A stretch of 49,818 nt of DNA, taken from Chlamydiae bacterium SM23_39 (GTDB lineage Bacteria; Chlamydiota; Chlamydiia; Chlamydiales; SM23-39). A model generated the notes under the pieces. It saw only the letters and a list, made by a program, of their open reading frames with translations. It was not told the DNA's origin and did no database searches. Made by a program: the position numbers and the translations under genes. This document shows, one piece after another, positions 5,890-48,425 of the stretch; the first letter of the stretch is position 1; the number at the start of each line of letters is the position of its first letter. The stretch covers positions 1-49,818 of the forward strand of contig LJUH01000001.1 of assembly GCA_001303765.1 (NCBI GenBank), given 5' to 3'.

Positions 5890-5897
5890 AGGATAGT

Positions 5898-6556: not shown

Positions 6557-6569
6557 TTTTTACACCCTT

Positions 6570-8140: not shown

Positions 8141-8275
8141 AATTCATTACATTATTCCGCATCCTTTTTAACTTTCTCATTACCCGATTTCTTCCTCAAG
8201 ATTTTTTTCTCAATTTTTCTAAAACTTATTTAAACAAACATAGATTTTAAAAATTTTTCAATATAAACTTTAACT

Positions 8276-9678: not shown

Positions 9679-9720
9679 AAAAAGTATCCTTTTTTACTAT
9701 AATAATTACTTAAAAATATT

Positions 9721-10422
9721 ATGCAAAGGTTAAGTAAAATTTTAGTATCTAGAGGCATAGCTTCCAGAAGAAAATGTGAAGAGATAATTAAAAACAACAG
9801 AGTAAAAGTAAATAATCAATTAATAACTCTTCCTCAATTTATGGTAGATGAAAAAAAAGATTTAATAGAGTTAGATAATATAAAAATTTCTAAAAAGGAA
9901 AAAAAAGTTTATTACATACTTAATAAGCCAGCAGGATATTTATCAACCAACTGTCCTTATACTAAAAAGAAAAAAGTAATAGACCTCTTCCCCAAAAAAC
10001 CTAGAATATTTACTGTTGGAAGACTAGATAAAAACAGCAAGGGTTTATTAATAATTACAAATGATGGGTATCTTGCTCATAAAATAATGCATCCCTCATC
10101 AAATATAGAAAAGGAATATTTAGTTTATACAGAACAAAAGATAACTTCTAAACATACAAAAATTATATCCAAAGGAATAATTATTAAAAACAGGATTATA
10201 AAACCAGTATCTTTAAAAAAGATCTCTTTTAACAGTGTATCGATAATTGTAAAAGAGGGGAAAAAACATGAGATTAGATTATTTTTAAAAAATGCTAATT
10301 TAAAGGTAAAAGATTTAATAAGAATAAGGATTGGTTTTTTAAAATTAAAAAATTTAAAAGAAGGAGAATATAGAAATATGACTAAAAAGGAAATCGATAA
10401 ATTTTTATTTTTTATTCCATAA
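9721..10422 (+). CDS. rRNA pseudouridine synthase, RsuA/RluB family (S4 domain plus catalytic domain)
   Basis: MQRLSKILVSRGIASRRKCEEII (S4), GRLDKNSKGLLIITNDG (catalytic Asp motif) and KEY.V. Confidence 0.85.
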   Translation: MQRLSKILVSRGIASRRKCEEIIKNNRVKVNNQLITLPQFMVDEKKDLIELDNIKISKKEKKVYYILNKPAGYLSTNCPYTKKKKVIDLFPKKPRIFTVGRLDKNSKGLLIITNDGYLAHKIMHPSSNIEKEYLVYTEQKITSKHTKIISKGIIIKNRIIKPVSLKKISFNSVSIIVKEGKKHEIRLFLKNANLKVKDLIRIRIGFLKLKNLKEGEYRNMTKKEIDKFLFFIP

Positions 10423-34267: not shown

Positions 34268-35020
34268 CTATTTACTTTTAATAGCTACCACTGTTGCATG
34301 ACGTCCTGTTATCTTATCTCTTCTATAAGAATAATAATCTTTTGGATTACAATAGGTACATATTTTACTTATCTCAATATTTTCTCTTTTAATTCCTAAA
34401 TCTAAAAGCTGAGATTCTGCAATATCCCAAAAATCAAATAGATAATGATCTTTCTGAAAAGCCCAATATTTTTTAGGAAAATCTTTTTTATAATTTTTAA
34501 ATTCGGAATGTTGGAAACATATGCTAGGAGAGATAGATACTAAAATATTATCTATTTGTGACCCTTCCCTTAAAAAATTCTCTACCATCTTACTATAAAT
34601 ATTGCCAATAATACCTCTCCATCCTGCATGAGCAATTCCAATAATCTGATTTTCCTTATCAAAAAAAATAGCTGCTTGACAATCCGCATGGGTCACAGCT
34701 AATCCAATATCTTTTTCTTTAGTATAAAGACCATCTGCTACTTTAAAATTTAAAAAATTATTTCTATCTATCTCAATAATCTTAATTCCATGTTCTTGTT
34801 TAGCAAACACCAAATTATCTACTCTCATATTTTTTTGAATAAAACTACGATTTACTTTTACATTATCAGGATGATCTCCTACAGAATCTGATAAGTTTAA
34901 AGAATTAAAAGCACCAGTGCTTGTTCCCCCATGTCTAAGAAAAACTTTTCCAATAACATCTGGATAATTAGCTAAAATATCAAAATCCAACCATTCTAAA
35001 TCTTTATTTTCAACTTCCAT
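34268..35020 (-). CDS. pgeF: PgeF/YfiH-family (DUF152, Cu-oxidase_4) purine nucleoside phosphorylase / peptidoglycan editing factor
   Basis: FAKQEHG, VTHADCQAAIFFD....IGIAHAGWRG and CTYC....YYSYRRD motifs. Confidence 0.88.
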   Translation of the reverse strand: MEVENKDLEWLDFDILANYPDVIGKVFLRHGGTSTGAFNSLNLSDSVGDHPDNVKVNRSFIQKNMRVDNLVFAKQEHGIKIIEIDRNNFLNFKVADGLYTKEKDIGLAVTHADCQAAIFFDKENQIIGIAHAGWRGIIGNIYSKMVENFLREGSQIDNILVSISPSICFQHSEFKNYKKDFPKKYWAFQKDHYLFDFWDIAESQLLDLGIKRENIEISKICTYCNPKDYYSYRRDKITGRHATVVAIKSK

Positions 35021-35135
35021 ATATTTTTCCTCTTACAAAAGAGTAGAATACTTTTTATTTTATGTCGATAAAAACCATTTTTTCAAAAATTTTTATTTGA
35101 AAAAATAAAAATATAAATTATTCTTTTGATTAATA

Positions 35136-35792
35136 ATGAAAAAGTTATTTTTTCTAAGTATTTTTTTTGTTTCCTCTTTTGTGCAAGGTGGCTGTAGAGA
35201 TGTTTTTCATGAGTATTTACAACCAATATGTGATTTATATCATAATACTAAACATGATTATTATTTAGCGCTTCCCAAACCATTATCAGACTGGCAAATT
35301 TATGATGATCAAAAAAAAGATGAAATAGTTGTTTCTTATAAAAATATTCCTTTTTTTTCTGTTTTAGCTATTGAAGGGAAAAATGATATTGATTGTACTA
35401 AACACTATAGATACAAAAGCAAATTATTAGAAATTGCAAAATCTATAGCACAAAATGCAAAGAAAGGTTTGCAAATTGAAAAAGCGGTATTTAAAAAAAA
35501 TTTAGAAGAGCTCGACATATATTATATTTTTATAGAAGGAAATGTTAATGGAAAAAAATCTTATCACTTTATTACTTCTTTGGATTATCAATGGTTTGAT
35601 TTTTTTACTGATGTAGATGAAAAATATAATGAATGTTTAGAGGAAAAATTAGATAAGTTTTTTATGGACCTTATCAAAAATTTTGATGAAGAAGAAGATG
35701 AGGATGAATATGAAGAAGATGAAGCTTATGATGCTGCAAATTTTTTATTTGAGATGTTTGCTATAGATCTTTATACTAAAAATTCTTTTTAA
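35136..35792 (+). CDS. Hypothetical secreted protein with strongly acidic C-terminal tract
   Basis: It has a signal peptide MKKLFFLSIFFVSSFVQG and NFDEEEDEDEYEEDEAYD near the C-terminus. I recognise no family. Confidence 0.5.
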   Translation: MKKLFFLSIFFVSSFVQGGCRDVFHEYLQPICDLYHNTKHDYYLALPKPLSDWQIYDDQKKDEIVVSYKNIPFFSVLAIEGKNDIDCTKHYRYKSKLLEIAKSIAQNAKKGLQIEKAVFKKNLEELDIYYIFIEGNVNGKKSYHFITSLDYQWFDFFTDVDEKYNECLEEKLDKFFMDLIKNFDEEEDEDEYEEDEAYDAANFLFEMFAIDLYTKNSF

Positions 35793-35825
35793 AGTTTAAA
35801 ATAAATTTTTTCCAACAGTCATATT

Positions 35826-36986
35826 TTAAGAAGAAAGAATCAATTCCAATCCAATAGCTGCCCCTATAGCAATAGCATCTTCATCCACATCAAATTTAGA
35901 AGAATGCGATATCTCAAAAATATTTTTTTCTTCGTTCCTAGCACCTAAAAAGAAAAAAGCGCCTTCTACCTTTTGAAGGTAATAAGAAAAATCTTCACCG
36001 CAAAGAGTATTTTCATATTTAGTATCTACATTTTTTTTGCCAACAATTTTTTCAGCAACTTCTATTACTCTTTTAGTTCCATATTCTTTATTTATTACGG
36101 AGGTATAAGCTCTAGCAAAATCAAATTCACATTTATATCCTTGCATTTTTAAGCTTTTAACACTATTCCACATAAACTCTTCTATTAAATTCATATCTTC
36201 CTTACTATATGATCTAACAGTACCTGATAACTCAGCTTTATCAGATATTACATTATGTATATTTCCTGAGATAAACTTACTTACACTTAAAAGTGTAAAA
36301 TGTGTAGCATTGATTCTTCTAGTTATGATTGATTGCCATAAATTTATTAAATTAACAGCTGCTAAAAGAGGATCTAATCCAATATGAGGCGTAGCTGCAT
36401 GGGTTCCCTTCCCCTTTAAAATAAGATCAAAATTAGCTACATTTGCCGTCACTGCTCCCTCTTTTATCTTAATTTTTCCTGTTTCAATACTAATATCTTT
36501 ATGAAACCCATATATCTCATCAACATCTTCTAAACACCCCTCCTTTATCATTCCTAAAGCTCCTCCTGGAGGATTTTCTTCATTTGGTTGAAAAATAAAT
36601 CTAACATTACATGATAATTTTTTCTTATTTTTAACAACCAACTTAGCAATTAAAAGAGCTGCTGCCATATGTGCATCATGCCCACACATATGCGCAACAC
36701 CTGGAATTTTCGATACAAAAGAATGGGTATTCTCTTCTTTAACTGGTAAAGCATCCATATCAGTTCGCCATGCTATAGTTTTTTTAGTTTTATCTATTAT
36801 AAGATCTGCAATAAATCCATAGCCCCAACATTTTTTTATTTTATATCCTAAAAATCTCATGACCTCTTGACAATATAAAGAAGTATTTTTTTCTTGCATT
36901 CCCAATTCTGGATACATATGTAAAAAACGCCTATGCTTAACAGCCCAATTTAATTCTTCAAAAGCACTTTCTTTAATATTGGCCAT
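35826..36986 (-). CDS. M20-family amidohydrolase (N-acyl-L-amino-acid amidohydrolase / hippurate hydrolase type, M20D)
   Basis: RR.LH..PEL...E, AWRTDMDALP, HMCGHDAHMAAALL, FIFQPNEE.PPGGA and HS..FD.DE. Confidence 0.85.
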   Translation of the reverse strand: MANIKESAFEELNWAVKHRRFLHMYPELGMQEKNTSLYCQEVMRFLGYKIKKCWGYGFIADLIIDKTKKTIAWRTDMDALPVKEENTHSFVSKIPGVAHMCGHDAHMAAALLIAKLVVKNKKKLSCNVRFIFQPNEENPPGGALGMIKEGCLEDVDEIYGFHKDISIETGKIKIKEGAVTANVANFDLILKGKGTHAATPHIGLDPLLAAVNLINLWQSIITRRINATHFTLLSVSKFISGNIHNVISDKAELSGTVRSYSKEDMNLIEEFMWNSVKSLKMQGYKCEFDFARAYTSVINKEYGTKRVIEVAEKIVGKKNVDTKYENTLCGEDFSYYLQKVEGAFFFLGARNEEKNIFEISHSSKFDVDEDAIAIGAAIGLELILSS

Positions 36987-37051
36987 GAAAAAACTCCTTA
37001 TAAGGTAAAAAGATGTTTATATATTTTTTTATATTAAATGCAAAGAAAATT

Positions 37052-38656
37052 TCATTGTTTTTTATATTTTTGATAAAAAATATCTAAAAGATTACTTACA
37101 TTTTTACCAATTTCCTTATAACATTCATCAGGAAGGTTAGCTAAAGAGATCCTCATAGACCATTTAGGCCCAGCAAATCCTTTGCCAGGAAGTAATATAG
37201 TCAATTTTTCTTCCGCTAACTTAAATAAAAACTCTAAAGGATCAATATTTTTCTCTAAATAATCCGCAAAATCTTTTGAATATTTTATCTTTGCTATCTT
37301 TCTAAGATCTATCAAAGAATAATAATAGGTGTTACCTTTTTCTTCTGGTATAGGTATTTTTAGATTATTATAAAAATCATTTATCCTTTTTTTTAATTTT
37401 TCATGTATCTTTTTTTTATACTCTTTTTTTTCATCCATAAGCTCATAAAGAGCAAAGAGAGTCATAATAGATTGTTGAGGACCTGAAAGTCCTCCGGTAT
37501 GAGCTAAAGCTTCATCTCTACTATCTAGTTCCAGCCTTTCAATAAAAATAACTTCTCTTGGATTAGCTGCAACCATACCATATCTTTTATCTAACTCTTT
37601 TTTTTCTTTTTCTGGTAACTTTTTTATCAACTTATCTATTATATTATTTTTATGTAACATAATAAGACCCAACCTCCATCCAGTAACACCAAAATATTTA
37701 GAAAAAGAATATATACAAACAACATTTTCAGGCAGTTCTTTCACTAAAGAATGAAACTTTTCAACAAAAGTAGCATATACCGTATCAGTAAAAATAATAA
37801 GATCTTTTCTTTCATTCTTAACAAATTCAACTACAGTCTTCATAATATCATCGCTCATAACAACAGATGTAGGGTTAGCTGGATTAACTAAATAAACAGC
37901 TTTTATGTTTGGATCTTTTAATTTTTCTAATTCTTTTATTGGTACTTGCCAATGCAATTCCTCTTTAGATTGCAATAAGACCTCTACCAAATCAAAACCA
38001 GAGAGAGTGGGCATTTCTAAATAAGGAGAAAAAATAGGAGTAATTATTGCTACCTTATCCTTTTTTTCAAAAATTTTATTTATTTTAAGAGATTTAAAAA
38101 GATATACCATAGCTGCAGCTGCTCCCTCTGTAGCAAAAAGATCAAACATCTCTTCTCTAAAATCATTATTTAATCCTAAGATTTGAAATAGATATCTTTT
38201 TAAAATTTTTTCCATTAATGGAAATATTCTAGGTGGAGAAGGATAAAAATCTCCTAAAGCAGCATCAACCATTGTAAATACAAAATCATCAGGAGAAAAA
38301 TTAAATTTTTCAATAGAATAATCTATAGCTTTTTTTAAAAACTGAACTTCTATATGATCTTTTTTTTTCTCTAAAAACTCATTTAATTTTTCATATATTT
38401 TATTTTTTTCAGGCCTATTTCCTAAATCCTCTTCTTTAAAACTATTAGCTAATTCAGAAGCAAATAAAATAAGATAAGAAAAACTTTTTCTTACTAAAGT
38501 ATTTAAAAAATTAGGATTTCCTCTCCCTGCATTAAGAACTCTTACTTTTTCTCCCTTTTTTATCTTAATCTCACATGATTTATTAGCTATATCTATAAGC
38601 TCATTTTTTATTTCAAAAGGGCTCATTTTTTTATATTTTTCAAAATTTTTATTCAT
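37052..38656 (-). CDS. asdA: Aspartate 4-decarboxylase (bifunctional aspartate aminotransferase / L-aspartate beta-decarboxylase)
   Basis: About 534 aa from ATG 38656 (AAGGA upstream). MNKNFEKYKKMSPFEIKNELIDIA...LNAGRGNPNFLNT parallels the remembered AsdA N-terminus (...LSPFELKDELIKIA...LNAGRGNPNFL). It has a fold-type I PLP core (YSFSKYFGVTGWRLG). The size is typical of AsdA and unlike ordinary aminotransferases of about 400 aa. Confidence 0.8.
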   Translation of the reverse strand: MNKNFEKYKKMSPFEIKNELIDIANKSCEIKIKKGEKVRVLNAGRGNPNFLNTLVRKSFSYLILFASELANSFKEEDLGNRPEKNKIYEKLNEFLEKKKDHIEVQFLKKAIDYSIEKFNFSPDDFVFTMVDAALGDFYPSPPRIFPLMEKILKRYLFQILGLNNDFREEMFDLFATEGAAAAMVYLFKSLKINKIFEKKDKVAIITPIFSPYLEMPTLSGFDLVEVLLQSKEELHWQVPIKELEKLKDPNIKAVYLVNPANPTSVVMSDDIMKTVVEFVKNERKDLIIFTDTVYATFVEKFHSLVKELPENVVCIYSFSKYFGVTGWRLGLIMLHKNNIIDKLIKKLPEKEKKELDKRYGMVAANPREVIFIERLELDSRDEALAHTGGLSGPQQSIMTLFALYELMDEKKEYKKKIHEKLKKRINDFYNNLKIPIPEEKGNTYYYSLIDLRKIAKIKYSKDFADYLEKNIDPLEFLFKLAEEKLTILLPGKGFAGPKWSMRISLANLPDECYKEIGKNVSNLLDIFYQKYKKQ

Positions 38657-40076
38657 TCTTTTTTCCTTTATATCTTTCATGTATCCAATGCTCTTTTTTA
38701 GCTATAGTCAAAATAGTAGGTATGATAAAAACTATTAAAAATCCCATAAAAATGGTCATAAAATAAAAGATATGATTTTTTGGAGAGAGTTCTAAAGGTG
38801 GAAATAATGCAACAACAAATAAAAATAAAATAGTGATAATTCCTAAAGATCCTATTATCCACATTCCAGAATTCTTCTTTCCAGGAATATAATAGGCTCT
38901 TTTAACTTCAGGATGTTTATATCTTAAATAAATTCCAGAAATAATCATTAAAAAATACATGCTCGCATATATCATCATAGACAGAGCTATAGATATCCAA
39001 AAAGCAATATTTATCTTATCAGAAATCATTAAAAAAGATCCTATTAAAGATATCACAATTCCTTGAACTATCAAAAGATTTCTAGGTATGCCATGTTTAT
39101 TAACCTTGGTAAGGAAGGGAGGGAAAAATCCTCTTTTTGCTGCTTCTAAAAGTCCTTTCACAGGGCCCATCAACCAAGCATTAGCTCCACCTATTGCTCC
39201 TCCTGCTACTAAAACTCCTATATAAGGAACAATCCATCCAACATTCATTTTTCTTAAAAACATTTCAAAAGCTTGCATAAAACCTGAAACAAAACTGATA
39301 TCTCTTTGAGGCACTACGATAGCCACAGAAAAAGCTCCTAATAAATTAACGGCAAGACCTATTATAACCACAAAAAAAATAGCAACAGGATAATTTCTAG
39401 CAGGATTAATAACTTTTCCAGCATGATTAGAAGAAGCTTCAATACCTGTAAAAGTCCTTGTAAAACTTAAGATTAAAACTAGAGTAGCAAATTTTTTAAA
39501 ATCTGGAAAAATATTCTTAGGAGTAAATGATAGATCTATACTTAAAGGATTATCCGAAAAAAAATAAAAAACACCTAATACTATCATCAAAATAGCAGGA
39601 AGCAATACTCCCAATAAAAAACAACAAGTACTAACTAAGCTATTAACTCTTACACCTTTTAAACTAGCCAATGTACATGTCCATAATGCAACAAATAAAA
39701 CAGATATCAAAAATATTTTATTAGCAGCAAGATCAGGAGCAATTACATAAGCAAAAGATCCTCCAACAAAATAAAACATAGATATAACACTCAATAACAT
39801 ATTGGTCCATTGTAACCAACTAGCTAAAAATCCAAATTTAGAACCAAAAGCTTTTGTAACCCAAACAAAAACACCTCCTTCTTTTGGCCATCCGGTAGCA
39901 AGTTCTGCAGAAATTAAAGCTGTTGGAATAAAAAAACAGATTGCTGCTATCAATCCAAAAAATATCATGTGAAGTCCCGTCTCTGCCATAGATGGAACAT
40001 TTCTAATGCTTACAACAAAAGCAGAAGAAAGTGTTATCAAAATAAATAAATTTATTTTATCCTTTTTTTGATTCAT
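38649..40076 (-). CDS. APC-superfamily amino acid antiporter, GadC (glutamate:GABA antiporter) family
   Basis: 475 aa with about 12 TM helices. It is collinear with remembered E. coli GadC: FFIPTALISAELATGWP.EGGVFVWV, FPDF.K..TLV, TG.EAS..H, NP.R.YP.A, GP..G, FPP.L.KVNKHGIP and RYKHPE.KR.Y.IPG. Its stop overlaps the asdA start by 8 nt. Confidence 0.8.
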   Translation of the reverse strand: MNQKKDKINLFILITLSSAFVVSIRNVPSMAETGLHMIFFGLIAAICFFIPTALISAELATGWPKEGGVFVWVTKAFGSKFGFLASWLQWTNMLLSVISMFYFVGGSFAYVIAPDLAANKIFLISVLFVALWTCTLASLKGVRVNSLVSTCCFLLGVLLPAILMIVLGVFYFFSDNPLSIDLSFTPKNIFPDFKKFATLVLILSFTRTFTGIEASSNHAGKVINPARNYPVAIFFVVIIGLAVNLLGAFSVAIVVPQRDISFVSGFMQAFEMFLRKMNVGWIVPYIGVLVAGGAIGGANAWLMGPVKGLLEAAKRGFFPPFLTKVNKHGIPRNLLIVQGIVISLIGSFLMISDKINIAFWISIALSMMIYASMYFLMIISGIYLRYKHPEVKRAYYIPGKKNSGMWIIGSLGIITILFLFVVALFPPLELSPKNHIFYFMTIFMGFLIVFIIPTILTIAKKEHWIHERYKGKKNE

Positions 40077-40122
40077 CTTTTATTATGATATATAAAAATT
40101 AAAAAAAATCTTGTCAAAGAAA

Positions 40123-41757
40123 TTAAAAATCTAAAAATATTCCTGCATGAATTCTTGAATGCCATCCTTCAGGAAAAAATCTTCCATGAATACTTTTTAA
40201 CTGAATACCATAATCAACTCTTGCATTCAAATACTCCTTAATAGAAAATCTAAGACCAGGACCTACAGATAACAGTCTAGCATTATTTTTACTTAAAATA
40301 TTTTTATCTACATCTGTAACCATTCCAAAATCTATAAACCCTAAAAATTGTATTTTTTGTTTTCCATCTTTTTGCAAATCAAAAGCATCTGTTCTAATTT
40401 CATTAACCAATAAAAAACCTTGATCTCCAATAACTTCATTTTCTCTATATCCTCTAACTGTTCTAAATCCTCCTAAAGAAAACTGTTCTATTGGCAGTAA
40501 TTTGCTACTAGAAGCTTGAAAGGAAGTTTTCAATATCCAAGAAAATTTTTGTGGTAAAGGAATATTAAGGTCTATATCTAACAAGCCATACACATAATTA
40601 CTTTTAGCTCTTTCTCTTTCCTGTTCAAAATATTTTCTTTTATTATATCTAGTCATCTTCCCTGGACTTATAAAAACATTAATTCCTAATAAAGCATTAA
40701 ATCTATCTTTAGAATAAGTCCCCTCATATTTAAGAAGGAATTGAGATACATCTATAAATGAATCATATATCAAAGTCTCTTGATATATTATAAAATTATT
40801 TGTTCTTTTAAAATCATATCCTAAAACAAATTCATGTTTATAATTTTCAAAAGTAGGTAATGGGATAACATATCTACCTATTAGACTCCATGCTTTACCA
40901 TCCAAATTTTGATCAGGTTCATAATCGGGCTTTGTTTTAACATAATATCCAAAAACTCTTAAAATATTTCTTTTCCATAAATTAGCTATATAATTACCTG
41001 ATACTCCCCACCATTTATTTAATTCCGATGAAGACATAAATTGTGCATTAGCTTCATCATTACCAAAACAACTAGCAATAGTAACTCCAGCAATATATCT
41101 AGAAAGTCCGGTATCTTTCGTTCCAGTATTTTCATATCCTCCATATACTTTTACAGGAAATCTATCTTCTGTCTGCAAAATAATATTTGTTTCTCCTAAC
41201 TCTTCTCCAGGTTCAAAAATCAATGAAGTAGTATGAAAAGGACTAGTATTTAACCAAAAAACCTCTTCCTGTATTTGATCTTTATTGATAATTTCTTCCG
41301 TTTTTATTTTTAAGCTATTTTTTATTTTTTTATTAGAAAAAAATCTAGCTCCTTCTGCTTTTATTTTTCCTAATTTACCTAAAAGAACTAAAATTTTAAT
41401 ATTTCCTAAGGTAACATCTTGCCCTTCTAAAATATGTACAGATACTATATAAGAACTATTTTTTTCATAATAATCAACAACAGCTTTTTTTATCTCTTCT
41501 AAAATATCTGTCGTCAAAGGCTTTTTTAAAAATTTAGACATCTCTTTTTTAAAAGGAGTTTTTTTTGGAACTTCTAATCCTAATATAACAATACCTTCTT
41601 CAGTAACATCTATCTTTTGCTTTTCATCTCCCATAAATATAAGAGAATTGATAAATATCTCTTTTTTTTTATTCTCAACAAGTTCTCTTTCTTCTGTAAA
41701 ATCCTCTCCATATCCAAAAAAGCTAATAAGTAAAAACACCCAAAGATATCTTTTCAT
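40123..41757 (-). CDS. Two-partner secretion outer-membrane transporter TpsB (ShlB/FhaC/HecB family, POTRA plus beta-barrel)
   Basis: 544 aa with a signal peptide and a POTRA-like N-terminal third. It has QFSLGGFRTVRGYRENEVIGDQGFLLVNEIR (the ShlB-type motif) and ends in an aromatic residue (IFLDF). Confidence 0.85.
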   Translation of the reverse strand: MKRYLWVFLLISFFGYGEDFTEERELVENKKKEIFINSLIFMGDEKQKIDVTEEGIVILGLEVPKKTPFKKEMSKFLKKPLTTDILEEIKKAVVDYYEKNSSYIVSVHILEGQDVTLGNIKILVLLGKLGKIKAEGARFFSNKKIKNSLKIKTEEIINKDQIQEEVFWLNTSPFHTTSLIFEPGEELGETNIILQTEDRFPVKVYGGYENTGTKDTGLSRYIAGVTIASCFGNDEANAQFMSSSELNKWWGVSGNYIANLWKRNILRVFGYYVKTKPDYEPDQNLDGKAWSLIGRYVIPLPTFENYKHEFVLGYDFKRTNNFIIYQETLIYDSFIDVSQFLLKYEGTYSKDRFNALLGINVFISPGKMTRYNKRKYFEQERERAKSNYVYGLLDIDLNIPLPQKFSWILKTSFQASSSKLLPIEQFSLGGFRTVRGYRENEVIGDQGFLLVNEIRTDAFDLQKDGKQKIQFLGFIDFGMVTDVDKNILSKNNARLLSVGPGLRFSIKEYLNARVDYGIQLKSIHGRFFPEGWHSRIHAGIFLDF

Positions 41758-41808
41758 ATTTATTTAGTAATATTAAATTTTTTTTATCGCGTCAACCTTG
41801 TAAAACTT

Positions 41809-44800
41809 TTATTTAATAAATATTTTAAACAATTTTGAATATCTTAAAGGAGTAAAACAATTTTTTCCCTCTTTATAACATTCAAAAAATCTAAGATAAA
41901 TAGGATAATAAAAATAAAAAGATTCATATTCACTATAATCTATTTTATATGTTAAAGAAGCATCAGTTGATAATATTCTAAACAACTCGCTAGGAGGTAT
42001 TGGCGGCACAGGTGGTTCTGGTGGGTATATTACATTTTGTATATTCAATATTCCTCCTGTTCCTGTAGCAGTACCTCCTACTAAATCAACATATACAGGA
42101 GGTGTGTAATTAGAATAATCCAAAGTATTATCTAATCCTATTCCATTAACAATCCCTGCAACACCTTTCTGATCAGAAAATACAAATGTATCCGGCTGCA
42201 AGTTGCCTGTAAGATCTGTTATATGTGAAAAGCTTACCCCCCCTACATCTCCTGAATTTATACCTGTTATATTCCAAGTATTAACTACATTAGGTCCCAC
42301 TAAAGTATTTACTCCTCCTACTCCACCATTTATAGTAGATATTGTTCCTCCATTTAAATAAAAAATATCATCATTACTTCCACCAGTAATTGAAGTTAAA
42401 GTTCCTCCATTTATATTATAGATATTATTTCCAGATATTTCATTTATAAATTCCATATCACCACCGTTCATATTGTAAGTATTATCTCCACTATTTCCAT
42501 TCAATACTTCAATATTAAAGAAACTAGTAGCTCCAGCAGATAGAGGATTAATATTACCCGAGTGTATACCATTTACAGTAAATGTCGTATTTTCTGGTGG
42601 AGCAACAATAGTATTACCTGTACCTCCACTACCATCAATGAAACTACTGATAAAACCTCCAATACTAAAGTTATATGTATCATCTCCCAATAATCCTCCC
42701 ATCAATTTTAAAAAGTCAGTGAAAGAAGGACCTCCTGTTATATTACCTGCATCATTTGCAGTTATATTCCATGTACTTCCACTTGTTGGCCCATAAAAAG
42801 TATTTGTTCCTCCACTTCCATTTAAAGTACCTGTTATTCCACTAGCATATATATAAAAAGTGTCATTATTAGCTCCTCCAGTAGCAGTAAAAGCTGCAGC
42901 TGTTATAGAAATGCCTGCATTTATTGTTAAAGATCCCGGATTTATTTGTCCTAGAAGAAAATCAATATTATTAGCACCTGCTGATAAATTCCCTGAAATA
43001 GTTATCGAATCACCTGCTATAAACTTTATTGAATCTAAGAAGGTATAAGCACCACATGTGATAGATGCAGTATTGGTATTATCACCAATGGTTATCAAAT
43101 TAAAACCATCTGCAAAAGTATTCAATGCTGATACAGGAAGCAAAAGACCTGCTCCTGTCCCTGCTAATCCAATAGATCTACTAACGGAATTAGGATAAAC
43201 TTTTAAATCGGTATTCCCTGAAATAGCACCCCCTGCTAAATTCATCGTATCTCCAATAAGAGTAACAGATCCATTAACAGCATCAATATCTTGTGAATTA
43301 TTATAGATAGCATATCCAGAACCAGACCCATATCCTTTTATCTGTATAGATCCAGTACTTTGACTTACTATATTACCAGCTTCCAAATAAACAGAATGAG
43401 AGCTAGCTCCTGTCCCACTTATTCCTTCAACATCGATATTTCCTCCTCCATTAGATGCAATTTTATCATTACTATTCATAACAAGATGAACACCATGATT
43501 ATTATTTCCTGTTCCTCGTCCTGTTCCTTTAACAGTTATATTTCCCGTATTTGAAACAATATCAGATGTAATACCATAGATATAAACTCCAACATTACTA
43601 TTAACTCCATTACCTCCTATCCCTTCTACAGATATGTTTGCTGTTGAAGCTGTTGCATCTATCTGTCCTCCATTTTCAATATTGATTCCTCTATTGTAAC
43701 TACCAGTACCACTGGTATTTCCTTCTCCCTTTAAACTTACATCTCCTACTCCTCCAGTAATGGTAGCTCCATTAATATGTATTCCTTCACAATAATCTGT
43801 CCCTGGACCTCCTTTACATGGATTACCCCCTAATCCATCGGAAAAAATTATTTTAGCATTATTAGTAGAAAGAACTTCAGAACTCGAGTTCATATAAACT
43901 CCAAAATTATTAGTATTTGTACCATTAGATACTCCATATAAAATTATATCTCCGTCAACTGATTGCACTTTTACATTTAAACCATCGAGAGTTATTCCAT
44001 AATTATCATTTGTTGAGGTTGCACTCCCTCCTGTTCCTTCTAAAGTTATAGTACCGGTACCTGTAGAATCTACCATTGAATAATTTGCAGAAAGATATAT
44101 GCCATAATTATTATTACCACTTCCATTACTAGAACCTGTCAATAAAATAGTTCCAGTAGAAGTAGAAGAGATAACCGTATTATTAGCTATATTAGGACCT
44201 CCATCCAACTGGATCCCATAATTTGTATTCGTTCCTACTCCACCACCACCTCCTCCTACACCTGTTAAATCTATTTTTGCTGATCCAGAAGAAGTTATCA
44301 AAGATCCTTGATTCAATACTATCCCTTCATTGCCACTTCCTAGTGGTCCACCTCTACCAAGAAGAGTTATATCACCATCTATAGAGGTTATCTGTGCTCC
44401 ATTGTTGAGAACTATCCCATCATAGCTAGCTCCTGTTATAGAAGCTGTTGTTTGAAAATCAAAAGCATCAAAATTAGCTCCGCTAAAAGTATTGCTTAAC
44501 ACAATTCCCGCTGCTATATCGATAGTTCTATCTGCTATCAAAGTAAGTTTTGTATTAGTTGCCCATGTTATATTTGTCTGTATACTTATAGTTCCGTTGC
44601 TATTACCTCCGATACCATCTGTTTTAACTATTACATTATTAAATGCAAGAGCATTTGTAAGGTCAACAACATATAGATTTGCAGGAGAACTAGCTGGTTG
44701 ATAAGGATTAGTAAAAGCAGGATTGCTTGGAGAAGTATTTGTTATATTTATATCTACAGGGTCTAAAGTTAATTCTCCTATCTTCCCAAAAGATGATAGA

Positions 44801-45918
44801 GTAGATACCCTTCCTTTAAATAAAAGATCTTTTTTGGAAGAAATTTCTACAAAACCTCCATTACCTTTAACAGTTTCTGCTGATATGTTTCCATAAAAAT
44901 GGTTTTTTCTATCTCCCCAAAGAAATATTTGTCCTCCATCTCCTTCTATTGAATCAGCTTTAATAACAGAATCTTCGGAAAGATACAAATTCTCAGTAAA
45001 TCCTTTCTTACCAATGTTAACATTGCCACCCTCTAAATCTCCTGATACATCAAGATAAGCTTTATCCTTTATCTCTATCTCTTTTCCTATTACCTCTATA
45101 TCTCCTCCCTTCTTATCTTTCGATGCTGTTAGTTTCCCATCTATATTAACTTTTCCCTCTTTTGCTCCTAAAAATATCCTTCCCCCTTTCTCATAAATAG
45201 TATTTGCTTCTATCAACCCTTCTTGATTTATTGCAAAAGAATCTATATTAGAAGCTTTAAGAGCTATATTTAATGCTTTAAGGACACCTTTATTATCAAC
45301 AGATCCTAATCCCTTAGGTTTTATTATTATATTTTCATCTTCTTTAAATATAAATATCTCTTCAGCTCCTATTAAATTAATATCTCCTTTAGTAGATTCT
45401 ATCTTACCCTCATTTTTTATCCGCTTAGAAAAAATATAAACTCCTTTCTCTCCTAAAATAGTCCCTTTATTTTCTATTTGGCCTTTTTCATTTTTAAAAA
45501 AATTTATATTTTCATCTTTTAAAAATTGGGAGTTAGCAATATCTAAAGTAGAAGCTATAAATTTTTGTGTTTTTATTAATCCTGACTTACCTATAACGAT
45601 ACCATTCTTATTTATTAAAAAAACTTTTCCGTTAGAAGAGAGAGTACCAAAAATATTAGAAACATTTTTTGAAATAACTCTATTTAAACTACAAGAAGAT
45701 TTAGAAGGTTGAATTATTTTTGTTATCTCATTTTTATCTATAGAAAAATTCTTCCAATCAATAATAGATTTATGACTATTTTGATTTATTGTTAAAGTTC
45801 TTGCTTCTTTAGAAAATTTTACCTCTCCATGAATAACTTTAGGATTTGAAGGATTGGAAATAATATAAAAAGGAAAAACAAAAAAAGATAACTTCAAAAA
45901 ATTATAAACTTTTAACAT
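41809..45918 (-). CDS. Two-partner secretion exoprotein TpsA (filamentous-haemagglutinin-like N-terminal TPS domain plus long Gly/Asn/Thr-rich beta-helical repeats)
   Basis: 1369 aa. After the signal peptide: NPKVIHGEVKF...TINQNS.KSIIDWKNFSI....T.I.QPS.SS.SLNRVIS.N.S.IFG.L.SNGKVFLINKNGIVIG, which is the TPS secretion domain. Further on: GNGGFVEISSKKDLLFKGRVS...G..GELTLDPVDINI. Then about 700 aa of imperfect G-x-I/V-L...G-x-G repeats, a PPEPPVPPIPP tract and an aromatic/Cys-containing tail. Confidence 0.85.
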   Translation of the reverse strand: MLKVYNFLKLSFFVFPFYIISNPSNPKVIHGEVKFSKEARTLTINQNSHKSIIDWKNFSIDKNEITKIIQPSKSSCSLNRVISKNVSNIFGTLSSNGKVFLINKNGIVIGKSGLIKTQKFIASTLDIANSQFLKDENINFFKNEKGQIENKGTILGEKGVYIFSKRIKNEGKIESTKGDINLIGAEEIFIFKEDENIIIKPKGLGSVDNKGVLKALNIALKASNIDSFAINQEGLIEANTIYEKGGRIFLGAKEGKVNIDGKLTASKDKKGGDIEVIGKEIEIKDKAYLDVSGDLEGGNVNIGKKGFTENLYLSEDSVIKADSIEGDGGQIFLWGDRKNHFYGNISAETVKGNGGFVEISSKKDLLFKGRVSTLSSFGKIGELTLDPVDINITNTSPSNPAFTNPYQPASSPANLYVVDLTNALAFNNVIVKTDGIGGNSNGTISIQTNITWATNTKLTLIADRTIDIAAGIVLSNTFSGANFDAFDFQTTASITGASYDGIVLNNGAQITSIDGDITLLGRGGPLGSGNEGIVLNQGSLITSSGSAKIDLTGVGGGGGGVGTNTNYGIQLDGGPNIANNTVISSTSTGTILLTGSSNGSGNNNYGIYLSANYSMVDSTGTGTITLEGTGGSATSTNDNYGITLDGLNVKVQSVDGDIILYGVSNGTNTNNFGVYMNSSSEVLSTNNAKIIFSDGLGGNPCKGGPGTDYCEGIHINGATITGGVGDVSLKGEGNTSGTGSYNRGINIENGGQIDATASTANISVEGIGGNGVNSNVGVYIYGITSDIVSNTGNITVKGTGRGTGNNNHGVHLVMNSNDKIASNGGGNIDVEGISGTGASSHSVYLEAGNIVSQSTGSIQIKGYGSGSGYAIYNNSQDIDAVNGSVTLIGDTMNLAGGAISGNTDLKVYPNSVSRSIGLAGTGAGLLLPVSALNTFADGFNLITIGDNTNTASITCGAYTFLDSIKFIAGDSITISGNLSAGANNIDFLLGQINPGSLTINAGISITAAAFTATGGANNDTFYIYASGITGTLNGSGGTNTFYGPTSGSTWNITANDAGNITGGPSFTDFLKLMGGLLGDDTYNFSIGGFISSFIDGSGGTGNTIVAPPENTTFTVNGIHSGNINPLSAGATSFFNIEVLNGNSGDNTYNMNGGDMEFINEISGNNIYNINGGTLTSITGGSNDDIFYLNGGTISTINGGVGGVNTLVGPNVVNTWNITGINSGDVGGVSFSHITDLTGNLQPDTFVFSDQKGVAGIVNGIGLDNTLDYSNYTPPVYVDLVGGTATGTGGILNIQNVIYPPEPPVPPIPPSELFRILSTDASLTYKIDYSEYESFYFYYPIYLRFFECYKEGKNCFTPLRYSKLFKIFIK

Positions 45919-45965: not shown

Positions 45966-48425
45966 TTATTTTATTTTCTTCATATGCTTAGATAAAGCTT
46001 TAGATAATTTCATCATATCTATAGGCTCTTTACCTATTATCTTAGATAACTTTTCATCAGGAATAATTTCTCTTTTGTTCTTAGGATTTTGAAGGTTTTT
46101 TGATTTTATATAAGACCATATCTTTTTCAACACATCACTTCTAGTAGCTTCTTTTTCTTTAATAATAGCTTCTAACTCCTCAGAAATCTTATATCCGTTC
46201 TTCTTTGTTTTTTTAGCATAAGGAGTTTTTGGATGATGAGCATCATATTTAGGTTCCAAAGCTTTTAAATCATTAACAATGATATTGCATTCAGGAAAAT
46301 TACTACACGAATAAAATATTTTTCCAAACCTAGACCGCCTCATAACTATTTTACCATCGCATCCCAATGCTGGACAATCTAATCTCTCTTTAAGAGGAAT
46401 AACCTTTTCTCCTCTTTTAGGAACGGTTACTATCCCCTGACATTCTGGATAATTAGAACATCCCAAAAATACCCCATATTTCCCATGCCTTATAACCATT
46501 TTAGCTCCACATTTAGGACATAGTTGATCCCATTCAAAATCTTCAGCATAATCCTCTTTTTTAAATTCTAAAGATTCTAAAGTAGCCGTATAATCACATT
46601 TTGGATAATCGCTGCACCCATAAAAATAGTTATTTTTCGACCATATCTTTAAAAGTTTTTTCCCACATTTAGGACATTTAATATTTGTCTCTATTCTAGG
46701 AGCAGAAGCTTCTTTTTTAGCTTTCTCTACCATAGGCATAAAGGCTTCCCAAAAACCCTTTATTAAAGACTTCCATTCTCTTTTATTTGCTGCTACTAAT
46801 TCTAAATCATCTTCCATAGCTGCAGTAAAACCAATATTCATTATAGGAGAAAAATTTTCTTCTAACATATATGCTATAACCTTACCTAACTCTGTTGGTC
46901 TTAAACTTGTTTTTTCTTTTATAGTATATTCTCTATTCTGTATCTTATTCATTATTGAAGAATAGGTAGATGGTCTTCCTATCCCTGATTTCTCTAATTC
47001 TTTAATCAATGATGCTTCAGTAAACCTAGCAGGAGGTTTTGTAAAAGATTGTAAAGGAACAATCTCTTCTAAAACAAGGCGTTGTTTCTCTTTTAAAGGA
47101 GGTAGTTTTTCCTTTTCCTCTTCTTTCTCTTCATCTTTTTTTTCCTCATAAAGAACAAGAAATCCTAAAAATTTTATATAAGAGCCTATAGCTTTTAAAA
47201 GCATATTATCTGCTTTAATATCTACAACAGTAGATTCATAGGTAGCATATTTCATTTGAGAAGCTATAAATCTATTCCATATTAAAAGATACAATTTATA
47301 TTGATCTTCTGTTAAATATTTTTTAACTTTTTTTGGATGCAGAGAGATATTAGTAGGACGAATAGCTTCATGTGCTTCTTGAGCTGACTTTTTACTAACA
47401 TAAAATATAGGTTTCTCGGGTATATATTTTTCTCCATACTCTTTTTTTATAAAATCTCGAGCTTGAAAAATAGCTTCCTTGGTAACTTTTACAGAATCTG
47501 TTCTCATATATGTTATAAGTCCTTCTATTCCCTCTTTTCCCATATCTATCCCTTCATATAAGGTTTGAGCTAAAGACATTGTTCTTGAAACAGAAAATCT
47601 AAAATGTCTACTCGCTTCCTGTTGCATAGTGGATGTTATAAAAGGAGGAGTAGGATTTCTTTTTTTTATTTTTTTTTCTATTTTTTCTACTATAAAAGAA
47701 CTCTTCTTTAATCTATTAACAACAGAATCAGCTGTTGCTTGATCTGGTATTAAAAAAACATTCTCTTTTTTTTCTTTTTCTACCTTTTTCCCATCTACAG
47801 AATATAAAAAAGATTCAAAAGAGAGTTCTTTTTCTTTAAAAATAGCTTTTATATTCCAATACTCAATAGGTTCAAATTCATCTATCTCCTGTTCCCTATC
47901 AACAACAAATTTTAAAGCAACCGACTGCACCCTTCCTCCTGAAGTCCTTCTTTTTAATTTTTTAGATAAAATAGGAGATACAGTATATCCAACAATTCTA
48001 TCTAAAAGACGTCTTGCTTGCTGAGCATTTACTAAAGATAAATTTATCTCTCTTGGATGTTTTAAAGATTCTAAAACAACATTTTTTGTTATTGAATTAA
48101 AAGTAATTCTTTTTATATTTGTTCCCTTAGGTAATATAGAAGCTATATGCCATGCTATTGCTTCTCCTTCTCTATCAGGATCAGGACAAAGATATACTAA
48201 ATCAACTTTTTTTGTTGCTTCTTTTAAATTTTTAATTACATCTTTTTTTCCTGGGAGGATAGTATATTTTGGTTCAAAATTTTTTTCTATATCTATACCA
48301 AATTCTTTTTCAGGCAGATCTCTAATATGACCAACAGATGATGCAAAAAAATAATTTTTCCCTAAAAACTTTTTTAATGTTTTAATTTTTGCAGGAGATT
48401 CTACTATTATTAAAATCTTTGTCAT
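45966..48425 (-). CDS. topA: DNA topoisomerase I with C-terminal SWIB/MDM2 domain
   Basis: 819 aa with a Toprim domain (LIIVESPAKIKT, DPDREGEAIAWH), an active-site region (ITYMRTDS) and several CPKCG/C..C zinc ribbons. The C-terminal ISEELEAIIKEKEATRSDVLKKIWSYIKSKNLQNPKNKREIIPDEKLSKIIG matches the SWIB pattern. Confidence 0.92.
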   Translation of the reverse strand: MTKILIIVESPAKIKTLKKFLGKNYFFASSVGHIRDLPEKEFGIDIEKNFEPKYTILPGKKDVIKNLKEATKKVDLVYLCPDPDREGEAIAWHIASILPKGTNIKRITFNSITKNVVLESLKHPREINLSLVNAQQARRLLDRIVGYTVSPILSKKLKRRTSGGRVQSVALKFVVDREQEIDEFEPIEYWNIKAIFKEKELSFESFLYSVDGKKVEKEKKENVFLIPDQATADSVVNRLKKSSFIVEKIEKKIKKRNPTPPFITSTMQQEASRHFRFSVSRTMSLAQTLYEGIDMGKEGIEGLITYMRTDSVKVTKEAIFQARDFIKKEYGEKYIPEKPIFYVSKKSAQEAHEAIRPTNISLHPKKVKKYLTEDQYKLYLLIWNRFIASQMKYATYESTVVDIKADNMLLKAIGSYIKFLGFLVLYEEKKDEEKEEEKEKLPPLKEKQRLVLEEIVPLQSFTKPPARFTEASLIKELEKSGIGRPSTYSSIMNKIQNREYTIKEKTSLRPTELGKVIAYMLEENFSPIMNIGFTAAMEDDLELVAANKREWKSLIKGFWEAFMPMVEKAKKEASAPRIETNIKCPKCGKKLLKIWSKNNYFYGCSDYPKCDYTATLESLEFKKEDYAEDFEWDQLCPKCGAKMVIRHGKYGVFLGCSNYPECQGIVTVPKRGEKVIPLKERLDCPALGCDGKIVMRRSRFGKIFYSCSNFPECNIIVNDLKALEPKYDAHHPKTPYAKKTKKNGYKISEELEAIIKEKEATRSDVLKKIWSYIKSKNLQNPKNKREIIPDEKLSKIIGKEPIDMMKLSKALSKHMKKIK

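What the first reader, a model, noticed from the sequence alone, without database searches (positions are those of the whole stretch)
35826..40076. GadC-family antiporter translationally overlapped with aspartate 4-decarboxylase: a putative aspartate/alanine decarboxylation-antiport module with a non-canonical transporter
What the sequence shows: a 475-aa APC transporter, collinear with E. coli GadC along its length, ends 8 nt inside the start of a gene of about 534 aa. That gene's N-terminus and size match aspartate 4-decarboxylase (AsdA, Asp to Ala plus CO2). An M20D aminoacylase gene follows 65 nt downstream on the same strand.

Established knowledge:
- GadC pairs with glutamate decarboxylase in acid resistance.
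- In Tetragenococcus the aspartate decarboxylase AspD pairs with AspT, an AAEx-family aspartate:alanine antiporter, to generate proton-motive force.
- Chlamydia species have an arginine decarboxylase/antiporter system (AaxABC).

Inference: the decarboxylase partner of a GadC-like exchanger has been swapped for AsdA. This predicts electrogenic aspartate(in)/alanine(out) exchange that consumes a cytoplasmic proton. It would be either an energy-scavenging device or a pH-homeostasis device for an intracellular bacterium feeding on host aspartate. The aminoacylase might liberate the substrate from N-acylated amino acids; this last point is pure speculation. I do not know of this specific transporter/enzyme pairing having been characterised.
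Basis: partly seen in the sequence, partly recalled or inferred. Interest (0 to 1): 0.6.

Follow-up and report, generated by a model that had tools for sequence, protein, structure and literature searches.

The report
Aspartate decarboxylase paired with GadC-like carrier
A small environmental chlamydia carries an aspartate 4-decarboxylase gene fused by an 8-base overlap to a GadC-family amino-acid carrier instead of the usual AspT exchanger; this gene pair recurs in chlamydiae, Dependentiae and DPANN archaea and most likely swaps aspartate for alanine to energise the membrane, though no activity has been measured.

Summary
On the minus strand, a 475-aa APC carrier (38649-40076) ends 8 nt (ATGAATAA) inside a 534-aa gene (37052-38656). 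That gene passes both curated AsdA models. An M20D amidohydrolase gene follows after 65 nt.

The carrier belongs to the GadC/TyrP branch but is an orthologue of neither. It scores about 360 bits against cut-offs of 630-673, has no C-plug, and the genome has no Gad-type decarboxylase.

The pair is not a chance neighbourhood:
- Carrier-then-AsdA recurs in 8 of 11 AsdA-bearing genomes among 400 Chlamydiota.
- It also occurs in Dependentiae and Woesearchaeota contigs, and in 21 of 32 informative metagenome loci.
- All carrier-linked AsdAs form one clade.
- The two proteins' distances correlate (Mantel r 0.86).

Sister operons hold AspT in the same slot, often with a periplasmic asparaginase. The carrier clade has an invariant Arg at the AdiC Trp202 substrate-site position.

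Best reading (about 0.6): electrogenic aspartate/alanine exchange plus decarboxylation, in a genome where no respiratory-chain family was found. Transport has not been tested. The M20D gene is not part of the conserved module.

The scan noted the same module earlier on other DNA (e1-4683214, e1-5216091). I found no paper describing it.

The parts
38649..40076 (-). 475-aa APC-superfamily carrier of the GadC/TyrP (glutamate:GABA antiporter) branch. It belongs to a distinct AsdA-associated clade with invariant Arg207 and has no C-plug.
   Evidence: Family scores: PF13520 232 bits; GadC models 365, 358 and 325 bits and TyrP 348 bits, all far below their cut-offs of 630-673. Structure: 4DJI E 1e-74; AF2 model pLDDT 89.5, and its best PDB match is GadC, TM 0.88. 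Tree and clade residues.
37052..38656 (-). 534-aa aspartate 4-decarboxylase (AsdA, EC 4.1.1.12 family).
   Evidence: NF006755 670 bits (cut-off 321) and TIGR03801 614 bits (cut-off 435). PDB 2ZY3/2ZY4 E 5e-124, aligned 1-533 against 1-528. Invariant NAGRGNPN (R45), S-x-S-K (K320) and R502. It sits in the single clade of carrier-linked AsdAs.
38649..38656 (-). 8-nt overlap ATGAATAA: the AsdA start codon lies inside the carrier's last codons and stop, which indicates translational coupling.
   Evidence: Sequence read. In 24 non-redundant pairs the spacing runs from -32 to +11 nt in 22 of them, measured from the longest ORFs.
35826..36986 (-). 386-aa M20D-family amidohydrolase, 65 nt downstream on the same strand. 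It is probably co-transcribed here but is not part of the conserved module.
   Evidence: TIGR01891 314 bits (cut-off 154); CpsA model 330 bits, below its cut-off of 500. RBS-like TAAGGAG. No signal peptide. No M20D lies beside the pair in any other locus examined.

Best explanation
This is a two-gene precursor/product exchange module. The GadC-family carrier imports L-aspartate, probably as the anion, and exports L-alanine. AsdA converts aspartate to alanine plus CO2 in the cytoplasm and consumes a proton. The net result is one negative charge moved in and one proton consumed per turn. That gives a membrane potential and a pH gradient without respiration, as in the AspT/AspD cycle of Tetragenococcus, but here a non-homologous carrier does AspT's job. 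Where a signal-peptide asparaginase sits beside the pair (unlinked in this genome), external asparagine feeds the cycle.

Shown: gene identities, the overlap, conservation and co-evolution of the pair, positional equivalence to AspT, and the clade-specific Arg at a substrate-site position.

Inferred: the substrates, exchange stoichiometry, electrogenicity and physiological role (energy versus pH control).
For: 1. AsdA identity is firm.

2. The carrier-then-AsdA order, tightly spaced or overlapping, recurs widely:
- Same-family genomes G017, G020 and G021, and GCA_040961015.
- 8 of 11 AsdA-bearing genomes among 400 sampled Chlamydiota, in 4 GTDB families.
- Two Dependentiae contigs and two Woesearchaeota contigs, one in clearly archaeal context.
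- 21 of 32 metagenome loci that have enough downstream sequence.

3. All 24 carrier-linked AsdAs form one clade (SH-aLRT 96). AspT-linked AsdAs lie across a 100-supported split. Carrier and AsdA pairwise distances correlate: Mantel r 0.86, reached by 0 of 2000 permutations.

4. The carrier fills the same slot as AspT. G035, in the same order, has AsdA-AspT. Omnitrophota and Thermodesulfobacteriota have AsdA-AspT-asparaginase. Woesearchaeota and other metagenome loci have carrier-AsdA-asparaginase. The asparaginases carry signal peptides.

5. Arg207 is invariant in all 48 members of the clade, and is Leu or Ile in 7 other chlamydial paralogues and in GadC. It is Arg in 103 of the 120 nearest database homologues. 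Profile alignment places it at AdiC Trp202, at the end of TM6a beside the unwound stretch. A cationic side chain there could bind the beta-carboxylate.

6. The nearest characterised relatives, by NCBIfam model names, are both decarboxylase-coupled antiporters (GadC, TyrP). No Gad/TyrDC-type decarboxylase (PF00282) was found in this 97%-complete genome.

7. No NQR/Rnf, NuoH, cytochrome bd or COX1 was found in the genome, whereas 4 nucleotide translocases and V-type ATPase subunits are present. 10 of 12 AsdA-bearing chlamydial genomes lack cytochrome bd, against 11 of 36 non-carriers among the relatives.

8. The established AspT/AspD cycle is described in PMC12462496 and PMC9508256.
Against: - No transport or enzyme assay exists for any member of either clade.
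- Carriers of the same clade, Arg207 included, persist without AsdA. Examples are the tandem copies beside an OppA-like gene in G011 and G023, genomes where no AsdA was found. The carrier therefore does not strictly need AsdA.
- Two genomes of one genus keep AsdA but have no carrier beside it; their order is MFS-DeoC-AsdA.
- The genome encodes alanine dehydrogenase (TIGR00518, 441 bits against a cut-off of 392), so alanine could be burnt rather than exported.
- The Arg207 argument rests on alignment to AdiC at about 24% identity and on the secondary structure of a model.
- The cytochrome bd association is not corrected for relatedness.
Confidence: 0.62

Rival explanations
1. Net aspartate uptake for catabolism or alanine supply. 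The carrier simply imports aspartate, by symport or by exchange with some other solute. AsdA makes alanine, which is kept for peptidoglycan and protein or oxidised to pyruvate by alanine dehydrogenase. Alanine is not obligatorily exported and no membrane energisation results.
For: - Alanine dehydrogenase and alanine racemase are encoded in the genome.
- Carriers of the same clade occur in genomes with no AsdA, and AsdA occurs without the carrier in one genus.
- In Francisella, AsdA is discussed as a source of alanine from aspartate (PMC5478678).
- About 25 of the 80 closest AsdA loci have no adjacent transporter at all.
Against: - With alanine dehydrogenase present, alanine can be made from pyruvate, so AsdA is not needed for supply.
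- A separate SDF-type dicarboxylate/amino-acid symporter already exists.
- The carrier sits exactly where the AspT exchanger sits in homologous operons.
- Its characterised relatives are exchangers.
- Tight translational coupling and co-transfer of the pair across phyla fit a stoichiometric two-part device better than a general importer.
Confidence: 0.22
2. The coupled device works on a different substrate pair. One option is Glu/GABA or Gln, as the automatic names suggest. Another is a further AsdA substrate such as cysteine sulfinate, since desulfination is a known side activity of AsdA enzymes (from my own knowledge).
For: - Database names for relatives say 'glutamate:GABA antiporter'.
- The best family models are GadC models.
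- Substrate specificity in the APC superfamily is hard to read from sequence.
Against: - Scores are about half the equivalog cut-offs.
- No PF00282 decarboxylase was found in the genome.
- There is no C-plug.
- The clade differs from GadC at substrate-site positions, including L212 to Arg.
- The conserved partner is AsdA, and periplasmic asparaginase, which yields aspartate, is a recurrent third gene.
Confidence: 0.08
3. The adjacency is fortuitous: two unrelated genes packed together in a compact genome.
For: Gene overlaps are common in small AT-rich genomes. The M20D neighbour shows that non-functional adjacency does occur at this locus.
Against: - The same order recurs in three phyla.
- The linked AsdAs form a single clade.
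- Mantel r is 0.86.
Confidence: 0.01

Closest known systems
AspT/AspD (asp operon) of Tetragenococcus halophilus, and the widespread TIGR03801/TIGR03802 (AsdA + AspT, AAEx family TC 2.A.81) gene pair
   Same: - The same enzyme family (AsdA).
- The same two-gene logic: a decarboxylase next to a carrier.
- The same optional third gene, a periplasmic asparaginase, in homologous operons.
- The predicted chemistry is the same: aspartate(1-)/alanine(0) exchange that generates proton-motive force (PMC12462496, PMC9508256).
   Different: - The carrier is not homologous to AspT. It has no Asp-Al_Ex (PF06826) or TrkA_C domain and instead has a 12-TM APC/LeuT-fold of the GadC branch.
- Gene order is carrier-then-AsdA, whereas AsdA-then-AspT is common.
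- The linked AsdAs are a separate clade.
- The hosts are host-dependent lineages (Chlamydiota, Dependentiae, Woesearchaeota).
GadC/GadB glutamate:GABA antiport system of E. coli (PDB 4DJI)
   Same: - Closest solved structure and closest curated family: TM 0.88, 30-31% identity, collinear over 458 columns.
- The same principle of a decarboxylase coupled to a precursor/product exchanger.
- E213 and W301 match GadC E218 and W308.
   Different: - Scores are about half the equivalog cut-offs.
- The partner is AsdA, a fold-type I aminotransferase-like enzyme, not a Gad-type decarboxylase. None of the latter was found in the genome.
- The alignment ends at GadC residue 472 and only 10 residues follow, so the C-terminal plug is absent. 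That plug gates GadC at acid pH (role recalled from Ma et al. 2012).
- Arg207 replaces GadC Leu212.
AaxABC arginine:agmatine system of Chlamydia, and AdiC/AdiA of E. coli
   Same: A decarboxylase-antiporter module that uses an APC-superfamily carrier, with a precedent in chlamydiae (PMC2720952, abstract seen).
   Different: - It is only distantly related: AdiC model 66 bits, 24% identity.
- The substrates are basic rather than acidic.
- The enzyme is a pyruvoyl- or PLP-dependent arginine decarboxylase, not AsdA.

Membership tests
Aspartate 4-decarboxylase AsdA (TIGR03801 / NF006755, EC 4.1.1.12) | Whole-protein score above the curated equivalog cut-offs | tested here: met
   670.3 bits against a cut-off of 321, and 614.4 against 435.1. 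In-genome search gave 614 bits, over the cut-off.
Aspartate 4-decarboxylase AsdA (TIGR03801 / NF006755, EC 4.1.1.12) | Full-length collinearity with solved AsdA, including the N-terminal region that ordinary aminotransferases lack | tested here: met
   Residues 1-533 align to 1-528 of 2ZY3/2ZY4, E 5e-124. Ordinary aminotransferases match only residues of about 141-347, at E 1e-13.
Aspartate 4-decarboxylase AsdA (TIGR03801 / NF006755, EC 4.1.1.12) | Catalytic and binding residues: the PLP lysine in S-x-S-K, the Arg of the NAGRGNPN motif, and the C-terminal carboxylate-binding Arg | tested here: met
   K320, R45 and R502 are invariant in six homologues. They align to K315, R37 and R497 of the solved enzyme. 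The roles of these residues are recalled from the structural papers; I did not re-read them here.
Aspartate 4-decarboxylase AsdA (TIGR03801 / NF006755, EC 4.1.1.12) | Beta-decarboxylase activity on L-aspartate | not testable with these tools
   This needs an enzyme assay. No member of the carrier-linked clade has been characterised, as far as I could find.
GadC glutamate/glutamine:GABA antiporter (TIGR03813, NF053662, TIGR00910) | Score above the equivalog cut-off | tested here: not met
   364.7 against 650, 358.4 against 640, and 324.8 against 673.5.
GadC glutamate/glutamine:GABA antiporter (TIGR03813, NF053662, TIGR00910) | A cognate glutamate decarboxylase in the genome or operon | tested here: not met
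   The neighbour is AsdA. PF00282 was not found in the 97%-complete genome.
GadC glutamate/glutamine:GABA antiporter (TIGR03813, NF053662, TIGR00910) | C-terminal plug (about the last 35 residues of E. coli GadC) | tested here: not met
   The profile alignment ends at GadC residue 472 of 511, and the protein has only 10 more residues.
APC superfamily, GadC/TyrP (glutamate:GABA antiporter) branch | AA_permease_2 domain, LeuT-type fold with breaks in TM1 and TM6, and closest to GadC among solved structures | tested here: met
   PF13520 232 bits. The model has pLDDT 89.5 with helix breaks at residues 22-26 and 209-211. Match to 4DJI: TM 0.88.
Tyrosine:tyramine antiporter TyrP (NF040513) | Score above the equivalog cut-off | tested here: not met
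   347.7 bits against 630. No PF00282 decarboxylase was found.
AspT / aspartate:alanine exchanger family (AAEx, PF06826, TIGR03802) | Asp-Al_Ex membrane domains with central TrkA_C domains | tested here: not met
   The window carrier has no such Pfam hit. The G035 neighbour of AsdA does hit it, with PF06826 at 227 bits plus TrkA_C. So the window carrier may work like AspT, but it is not a member of that family.

The most novel reading that the evidence does not exclude
The carrier-AsdA pair is a horizontally mobile, respiration-independent membrane-energising cassette. It is shared by three unrelated lineages of host-dependent microbes: Chlamydiota, Dependentiae and DPANN Woesearchaeota. A GadC-type carrier was converted, through Arg207 and loss of the acid-gated C-plug, into an electrogenic aspartate(1-)/alanine exchanger that works at neutral pH. 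This gives non-respiring symbionts a way to make membrane potential from host asparagine or aspartate instead of spending imported ATP.
Probability: 0.35. Interest if true: 0.72.

Novelty: new variant of a known kind. Interest (0 to 1): 0.55.

Why it matters
Decarboxylation-driven precursor/product exchange is a textbook way to make proton-motive force without respiration. For aspartate, the only known carrier is AspT (AAEx family).

Here a non-homologous carrier from the GadC branch has taken that slot. It co-evolves with its own AsdA clade and has spread across bacterial and archaeal symbionts.

If confirmed, this would:
1. Add a second, independent solution for aspartate/alanine exchange.
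2. Correct the 'glutamate:GABA antiporter' names given to hundreds of database entries.
3. Offer a defined residue (Arg207 against Leu in GadC) for studying how APC carriers select acidic substrates at neutral pH.
4. Point to a way in which non-respiring chlamydiae, Dependentiae and DPANN archaea energise their membranes from host amino acids.

Tried and rejected
- **Promoter/terminator scan of 35000-42000.** It found 36 promoter-like sites against 41 expected and 4 terminator-like sites against 2 expected. This is uninformative in 27% GC DNA and was not used.
- **M20D as a substrate-liberating part of the module.** Rejected: tblastn with the M20D protein found no copy beside the pair in about 140 loci. 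The only hit was an unrelated 31% match 4 kb from an Ochrobactrum AsdA.
- **A third, consistent transporter type beside AsdAs that have neither AspT nor the GadC-like carrier.** None emerged. The neighbours were heterogeneous: phospholipase B-like, S51 peptidase, radical SAM, SSF symporter, TPR proteins, QueC and a dehydrogenase.
- **MAFFT alignment of the clade with AdiC.** It scrambled the TM6 region. I replaced it with a profile alignment (hhalign), which agrees with the G-x-E motif register.
- **Measuring Arg207's distance to the TM1 break in the AF2 model.** The coordinates are not exposed to scripts, so only the model's secondary structure was used.
- **Literature searches for the pairing.** No paper in the held library links AsdA to an APC/GadC-type carrier or discusses AsdA in chlamydiae.
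- **Complex prediction.** Not run, because no physical binding between the two proteins is claimed.
- **The search of protein representatives.** Not run, because that library has no genomic context.

Full report
**1. What is at the coordinates**

Three genes lie head to tail on the minus strand:
- a 475-aa ORF at 38649-40076;
- an ORF at 37052-38680, 542 aa from the first ATG;
- a 386-aa ORF at 35826-36986.

Reading the DNA shows the first gene ending ...AAG AAT GAA TAA. An in-frame ATG of the second gene sits inside that string (ATGAATAA). The 534-aa start at 38656 is the right one. It aligns residue 1 to residue 1 with the solved Pseudomonas dacunhae enzyme and with five homologues. The third gene starts 65 nt after the second one's stop, behind TAAGGAG.

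**2. What the genes are**

*The enzyme.* The middle gene passes both curated aspartate 4-decarboxylase models: NF006755 at 670 bits (cut-off 321) and TIGR03801 at 614 bits (cut-off 435). It matches PDB 2ZY3/2ZY4 and 3FDD over its whole length at E of about 1e-124. Ordinary aminotransferases match only the central third, at about 1e-13. The S-x-S-K lysine (K320), the NAGRGNPN arginine (R45) and the C-terminal arginine (R502) are invariant.

*The carrier.* The first gene is an APC-superfamily carrier (PF13520).
- Its best curated models are three GadC models (365, 358 and 325 bits) and TyrP (348 bits). All are at about half their cut-offs of 630-673. AdiC-type models score about 66 bits.
- It is collinear with E. 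coli GadC (4DJI), residues 7-457 against 12-464.
- An AlphaFold model built on 52 relatives (pLDDT 89.5, pTM 0.89) has GadC as its best PDB match, TM 0.88.
- The alignment ends at GadC residue 472 and only ten residues follow, so the C-terminal plug of GadC is missing.
- It is thus a member of the GadC/TyrP branch, but an orthologue of neither.

*The third gene.* This is an M20D amidohydrolase (TIGR01891, 314 bits) with no signal peptide.

**3. Whose genome**

The window is contig C49 of a 1.13-Mb, 27% GC genome that is 97% complete. Two observations place it in Chlamydiota:
- A TopA-SWIB fusion at 45966-48425.
- The record titles of related genomes, 'Parachlamydiales bacterium' and 'Chlamydiae bacterium'.

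**4. Is the pairing more than adjacency?**

Yes. Several independent lines agree.

*Relatives.* Among 41 relatives, five have AsdA. In G017, G020 and G021 (same family) the closest homologue of the carrier lies directly upstream on the same strand. An NCBI assembly, GCA_040961015, shows the same arrangement.

*Phylum sample.* In an even sample of 400 Chlamydiota genomes, 11 have AsdA above the cut-off:
- 8 have the carrier directly upstream, in four GTDB families;
- 1 (G035) has AspT;
- 2, from one genus, have MFS-DeoC-AsdA with no carrier.

*Metagenomes.* I searched metagenome contigs with the carrier alignment and obtained 44 loci.
- 32 have enough downstream sequence to judge. Of these, 21 have AsdA next, two of them cut by the contig end.
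- Some of these contigs are the same as genome contigs already counted, so the numbers are loci, not independent genomes.

*Other phyla.* Contexts of three database homologues named by their sources show the same pair with 54-55% identical AsdAs:
- two are named Dependentiae;
- one is named Woesearchaeota, and it sits beside archaeal L31e and Pus10-type genes.

*Trees and distances.*
- On an AsdA tree of 101 sequences, all 24 carrier-linked AsdAs form one clade (SH-aLRT 96). Its sisters are unlinked AsdAs of Thermodesulfobacteriota, Elusimicrobiota and Sumerlaeota. AspT-linked AsdAs, including the chlamydial G035 copy, lie across a fully supported split.
- On the carrier tree, all linked carriers fall in one 48-member clade. 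That clade excludes the genome's two other GadC-like paralogues.
- Carrier and AsdA distance matrices correlate: Mantel r 0.86, reached by 0 of 2000 permutations.
- Spacing is -32 to +11 nt in 22 of 24 pairs.

The pair therefore arose once and has been inherited and transferred as a unit.

**5. Why aspartate/alanine exchange is the best reading**

*The carrier occupies AspT's slot.* Of the 80 closest AsdA loci in species-representative genomes, about 50 have an AspT homologue adjacent, 3 have the GadC-like carrier and about 25 have neither. Several AspT operons run AsdA-AspT-asparaginase (Omnitrophota, Thermodesulfobacteriota). Woesearchaeota and other loci run carrier-AsdA-asparaginase. G020 has the asparaginase divergently upstream.

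*The asparaginases are exported.* They have N-terminal signal peptides, including the unlinked copy in this genome on C19. Asparagine is therefore deamidated outside the cytoplasm, and aspartate is the species that must cross the membrane.

*The carrier clade has its own substrate-site signature.*
- Arg207 is present in 48 of 48 clade members. It is Leu or Ile in seven other chlamydial paralogues and Leu212 in GadC. It is Arg in 103 of the 120 nearest database homologues.
- A profile alignment puts Arg207 at AdiC Trp202, with F209, G211 and E213 matching AdiC F204, G206 and E208.
- In the model, Arg207 is the last turn of TM6a, before the break at residues 209-211.
- From the AdiC literature (recalled, not re-read), Trp202 lines the substrate site. 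A guanidinium there is a plausible partner for aspartate's beta-carboxylate.
- Together with the missing acid-gated plug, this suggests transport of the anion at neutral pH. That differs from GadC, which takes protonated glutamate at acid pH.

*No cognate decarboxylase for the annotated function.* No PF00282 (Gad/TyrDC-type) decarboxylase was found in the genome. The 'glutamate:GABA antiporter' name carried by relatives therefore has no enzyme to go with it.

**6. Physiological context**

The genome has four nucleotide translocases and V-type ATPase A/B-like subunits. I found no NQR/Rnf, NuoH, cytochrome bd or haem-copper oxidase.

Cytochrome bd was found in 2 of 12 AsdA-bearing chlamydial genomes, against 25 of 36 non-carriers among the relatives. 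These genomes are kin, so this is a hint and not a test.

An exchange/decarboxylation cycle that moves one negative charge in and consumes one proton per turn would give such an organism membrane potential without spending imported ATP. This is the mechanism established for AspT/AspD in Tetragenococcus (PMC12462496; PMC9508256).

**7. What argues against this reading, and the rivals**

- Nothing has been assayed.
- Carriers of the same clade, with Arg207, persist as tandem copies beside an OppA-like gene in G011 and G023, where no AsdA was found.
- One genus keeps AsdA without the carrier.
- The genome encodes a bona fide alanine dehydrogenase (441 bits against a cut-off of 392) and an alanine racemase. 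Alanine could therefore be used rather than exported.

The main rival (0.22) is net aspartate uptake feeding alanine or pyruvate. Francisella is a precedent for AsdA as an alanine source (PMC5478678). Against this rival:
- alanine dehydrogenase makes AsdA unnecessary for alanine supply;
- an SDF-type symporter is already present;
- the AspT-slot equivalence and cross-phylum co-transfer fit a two-part device better.

A different substrate pair gets 0.08 and chance adjacency about 0.01.

**8. The M20D gene**

It is probably co-transcribed here: same strand, 65-nt spacer, and no convincing terminator. No other locus with the pair has it. It is not part of the conserved module, and the idea that it liberates substrate has no support.

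**9. Novelty**

The kind of system, a decarboxylase plus a precursor/product exchanger, is well known, and the AsdA-AspT pair is curated (TIGR03801/03802). The variant here is a non-orthologous replacement of AspT by a dedicated GadC-branch clade, spread among Chlamydiota, Dependentiae and DPANN archaea.

I found no paper on it in four searches.

This scan had already noted the same module on other DNA: e1-4683214, a chlamydia with AsdA behind two GadC-type carriers led by oppA, and e1-5216091, a DPANN archaeon. My loci L122, L020/L021 and L166 show those same arrangements independently.

Verdict: real, conserved, probably functional as proposed, and biochemically untested.

Noticed in passing
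own genome, G000:C52:38582-42656 (locus L162:4583-8657): A second enzyme-carrier pair in the same genome. A 356-aa ornithine-racemase-like PLP enzyme (NF040742, 426 bits, below its cut-off of 480) overlaps by 11 nt the start of another GadC-like carrier (466 aa; GadC model 434 bits, below 650). A third APC permease (517 aa) follows. This may be another dedicated amino-acid conversion/exchange unit.
   Followed up: partly
window 40123-45918 (-): A two-partner secretion pair lies directly upstream of the carrier: a TpsA-like 1369-aa protein with a TPS domain and a ShlB/FhaC-type TpsB. In GCA_040961015 a 2343-aa TPS-domain gene lies directly downstream of the carrier-AsdA pair, so the neighbourhood partly recurs.
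   Followed up: partly
window 45966-48425 (-): A topoisomerase I with a C-terminal SWIB/MDM2 domain. This fusion is typical of chlamydiae and supports the taxonomic placement.
   Followed up: yes
window 35136-35792 (+): A 218-aa ORF with a signal-peptide-like N-terminus and a strongly acidic C-terminal stretch. It has no Pfam or NCBIfam hit. It is convergent with the M20D gene.
   Followed up: no
own genome (G000, whole): No NQR/Rnf (PF03116), NuoH (PF00146), cytochrome bd (PF01654) or COX1 (PF00115) was found in this 97%-complete genome. Four TLC nucleotide translocases and V-type ATPase-like subunits are present. It looks like a non-respiring chlamydia.
   Followed up: partly
L159 (G141:C1:1372000-1387000) and L160 (G097:C35:48000-62000): Two genomes of one chlamydial genus have an MFS sugar transporter, a DeoC/LacD aldolase and then AsdA, with no GadC-like carrier. 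G017 has DeoC - carrier - AsdA. The carrier therefore seems to have been lost from between DeoC and AsdA in that genus.
   Followed up: partly
L019 (G035:C14:7569-10917): A chlamydia of another family in the same order has the canonical AsdA-AspT pair. Its AsdA groups with Desulfohalobiaceae and Thermodesulfobacteriota sequences, which indicates a separate acquisition of the classical module.
   Followed up: yes
L073 (uncultured Desulfobacteraceae contig), 3865-9987: Asparaginase - AsdA - AspT, followed by a divergently oriented GadC-like carrier (38% identical to the window's). That carrier belongs to the non-linked paralogue group and lacks the clade's Arg207.
   Followed up: partly
L020 (G011:C6:6478-10916) and L021 (G023:C69:3532-7977): Tandem duplicates of the AsdA-associated carrier clade sit behind an OppA-like solute-binding protein gene (SBP_bac_5), in genomes where no AsdA was found. 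L122 has two carriers and then AsdA.
   Followed up: partly
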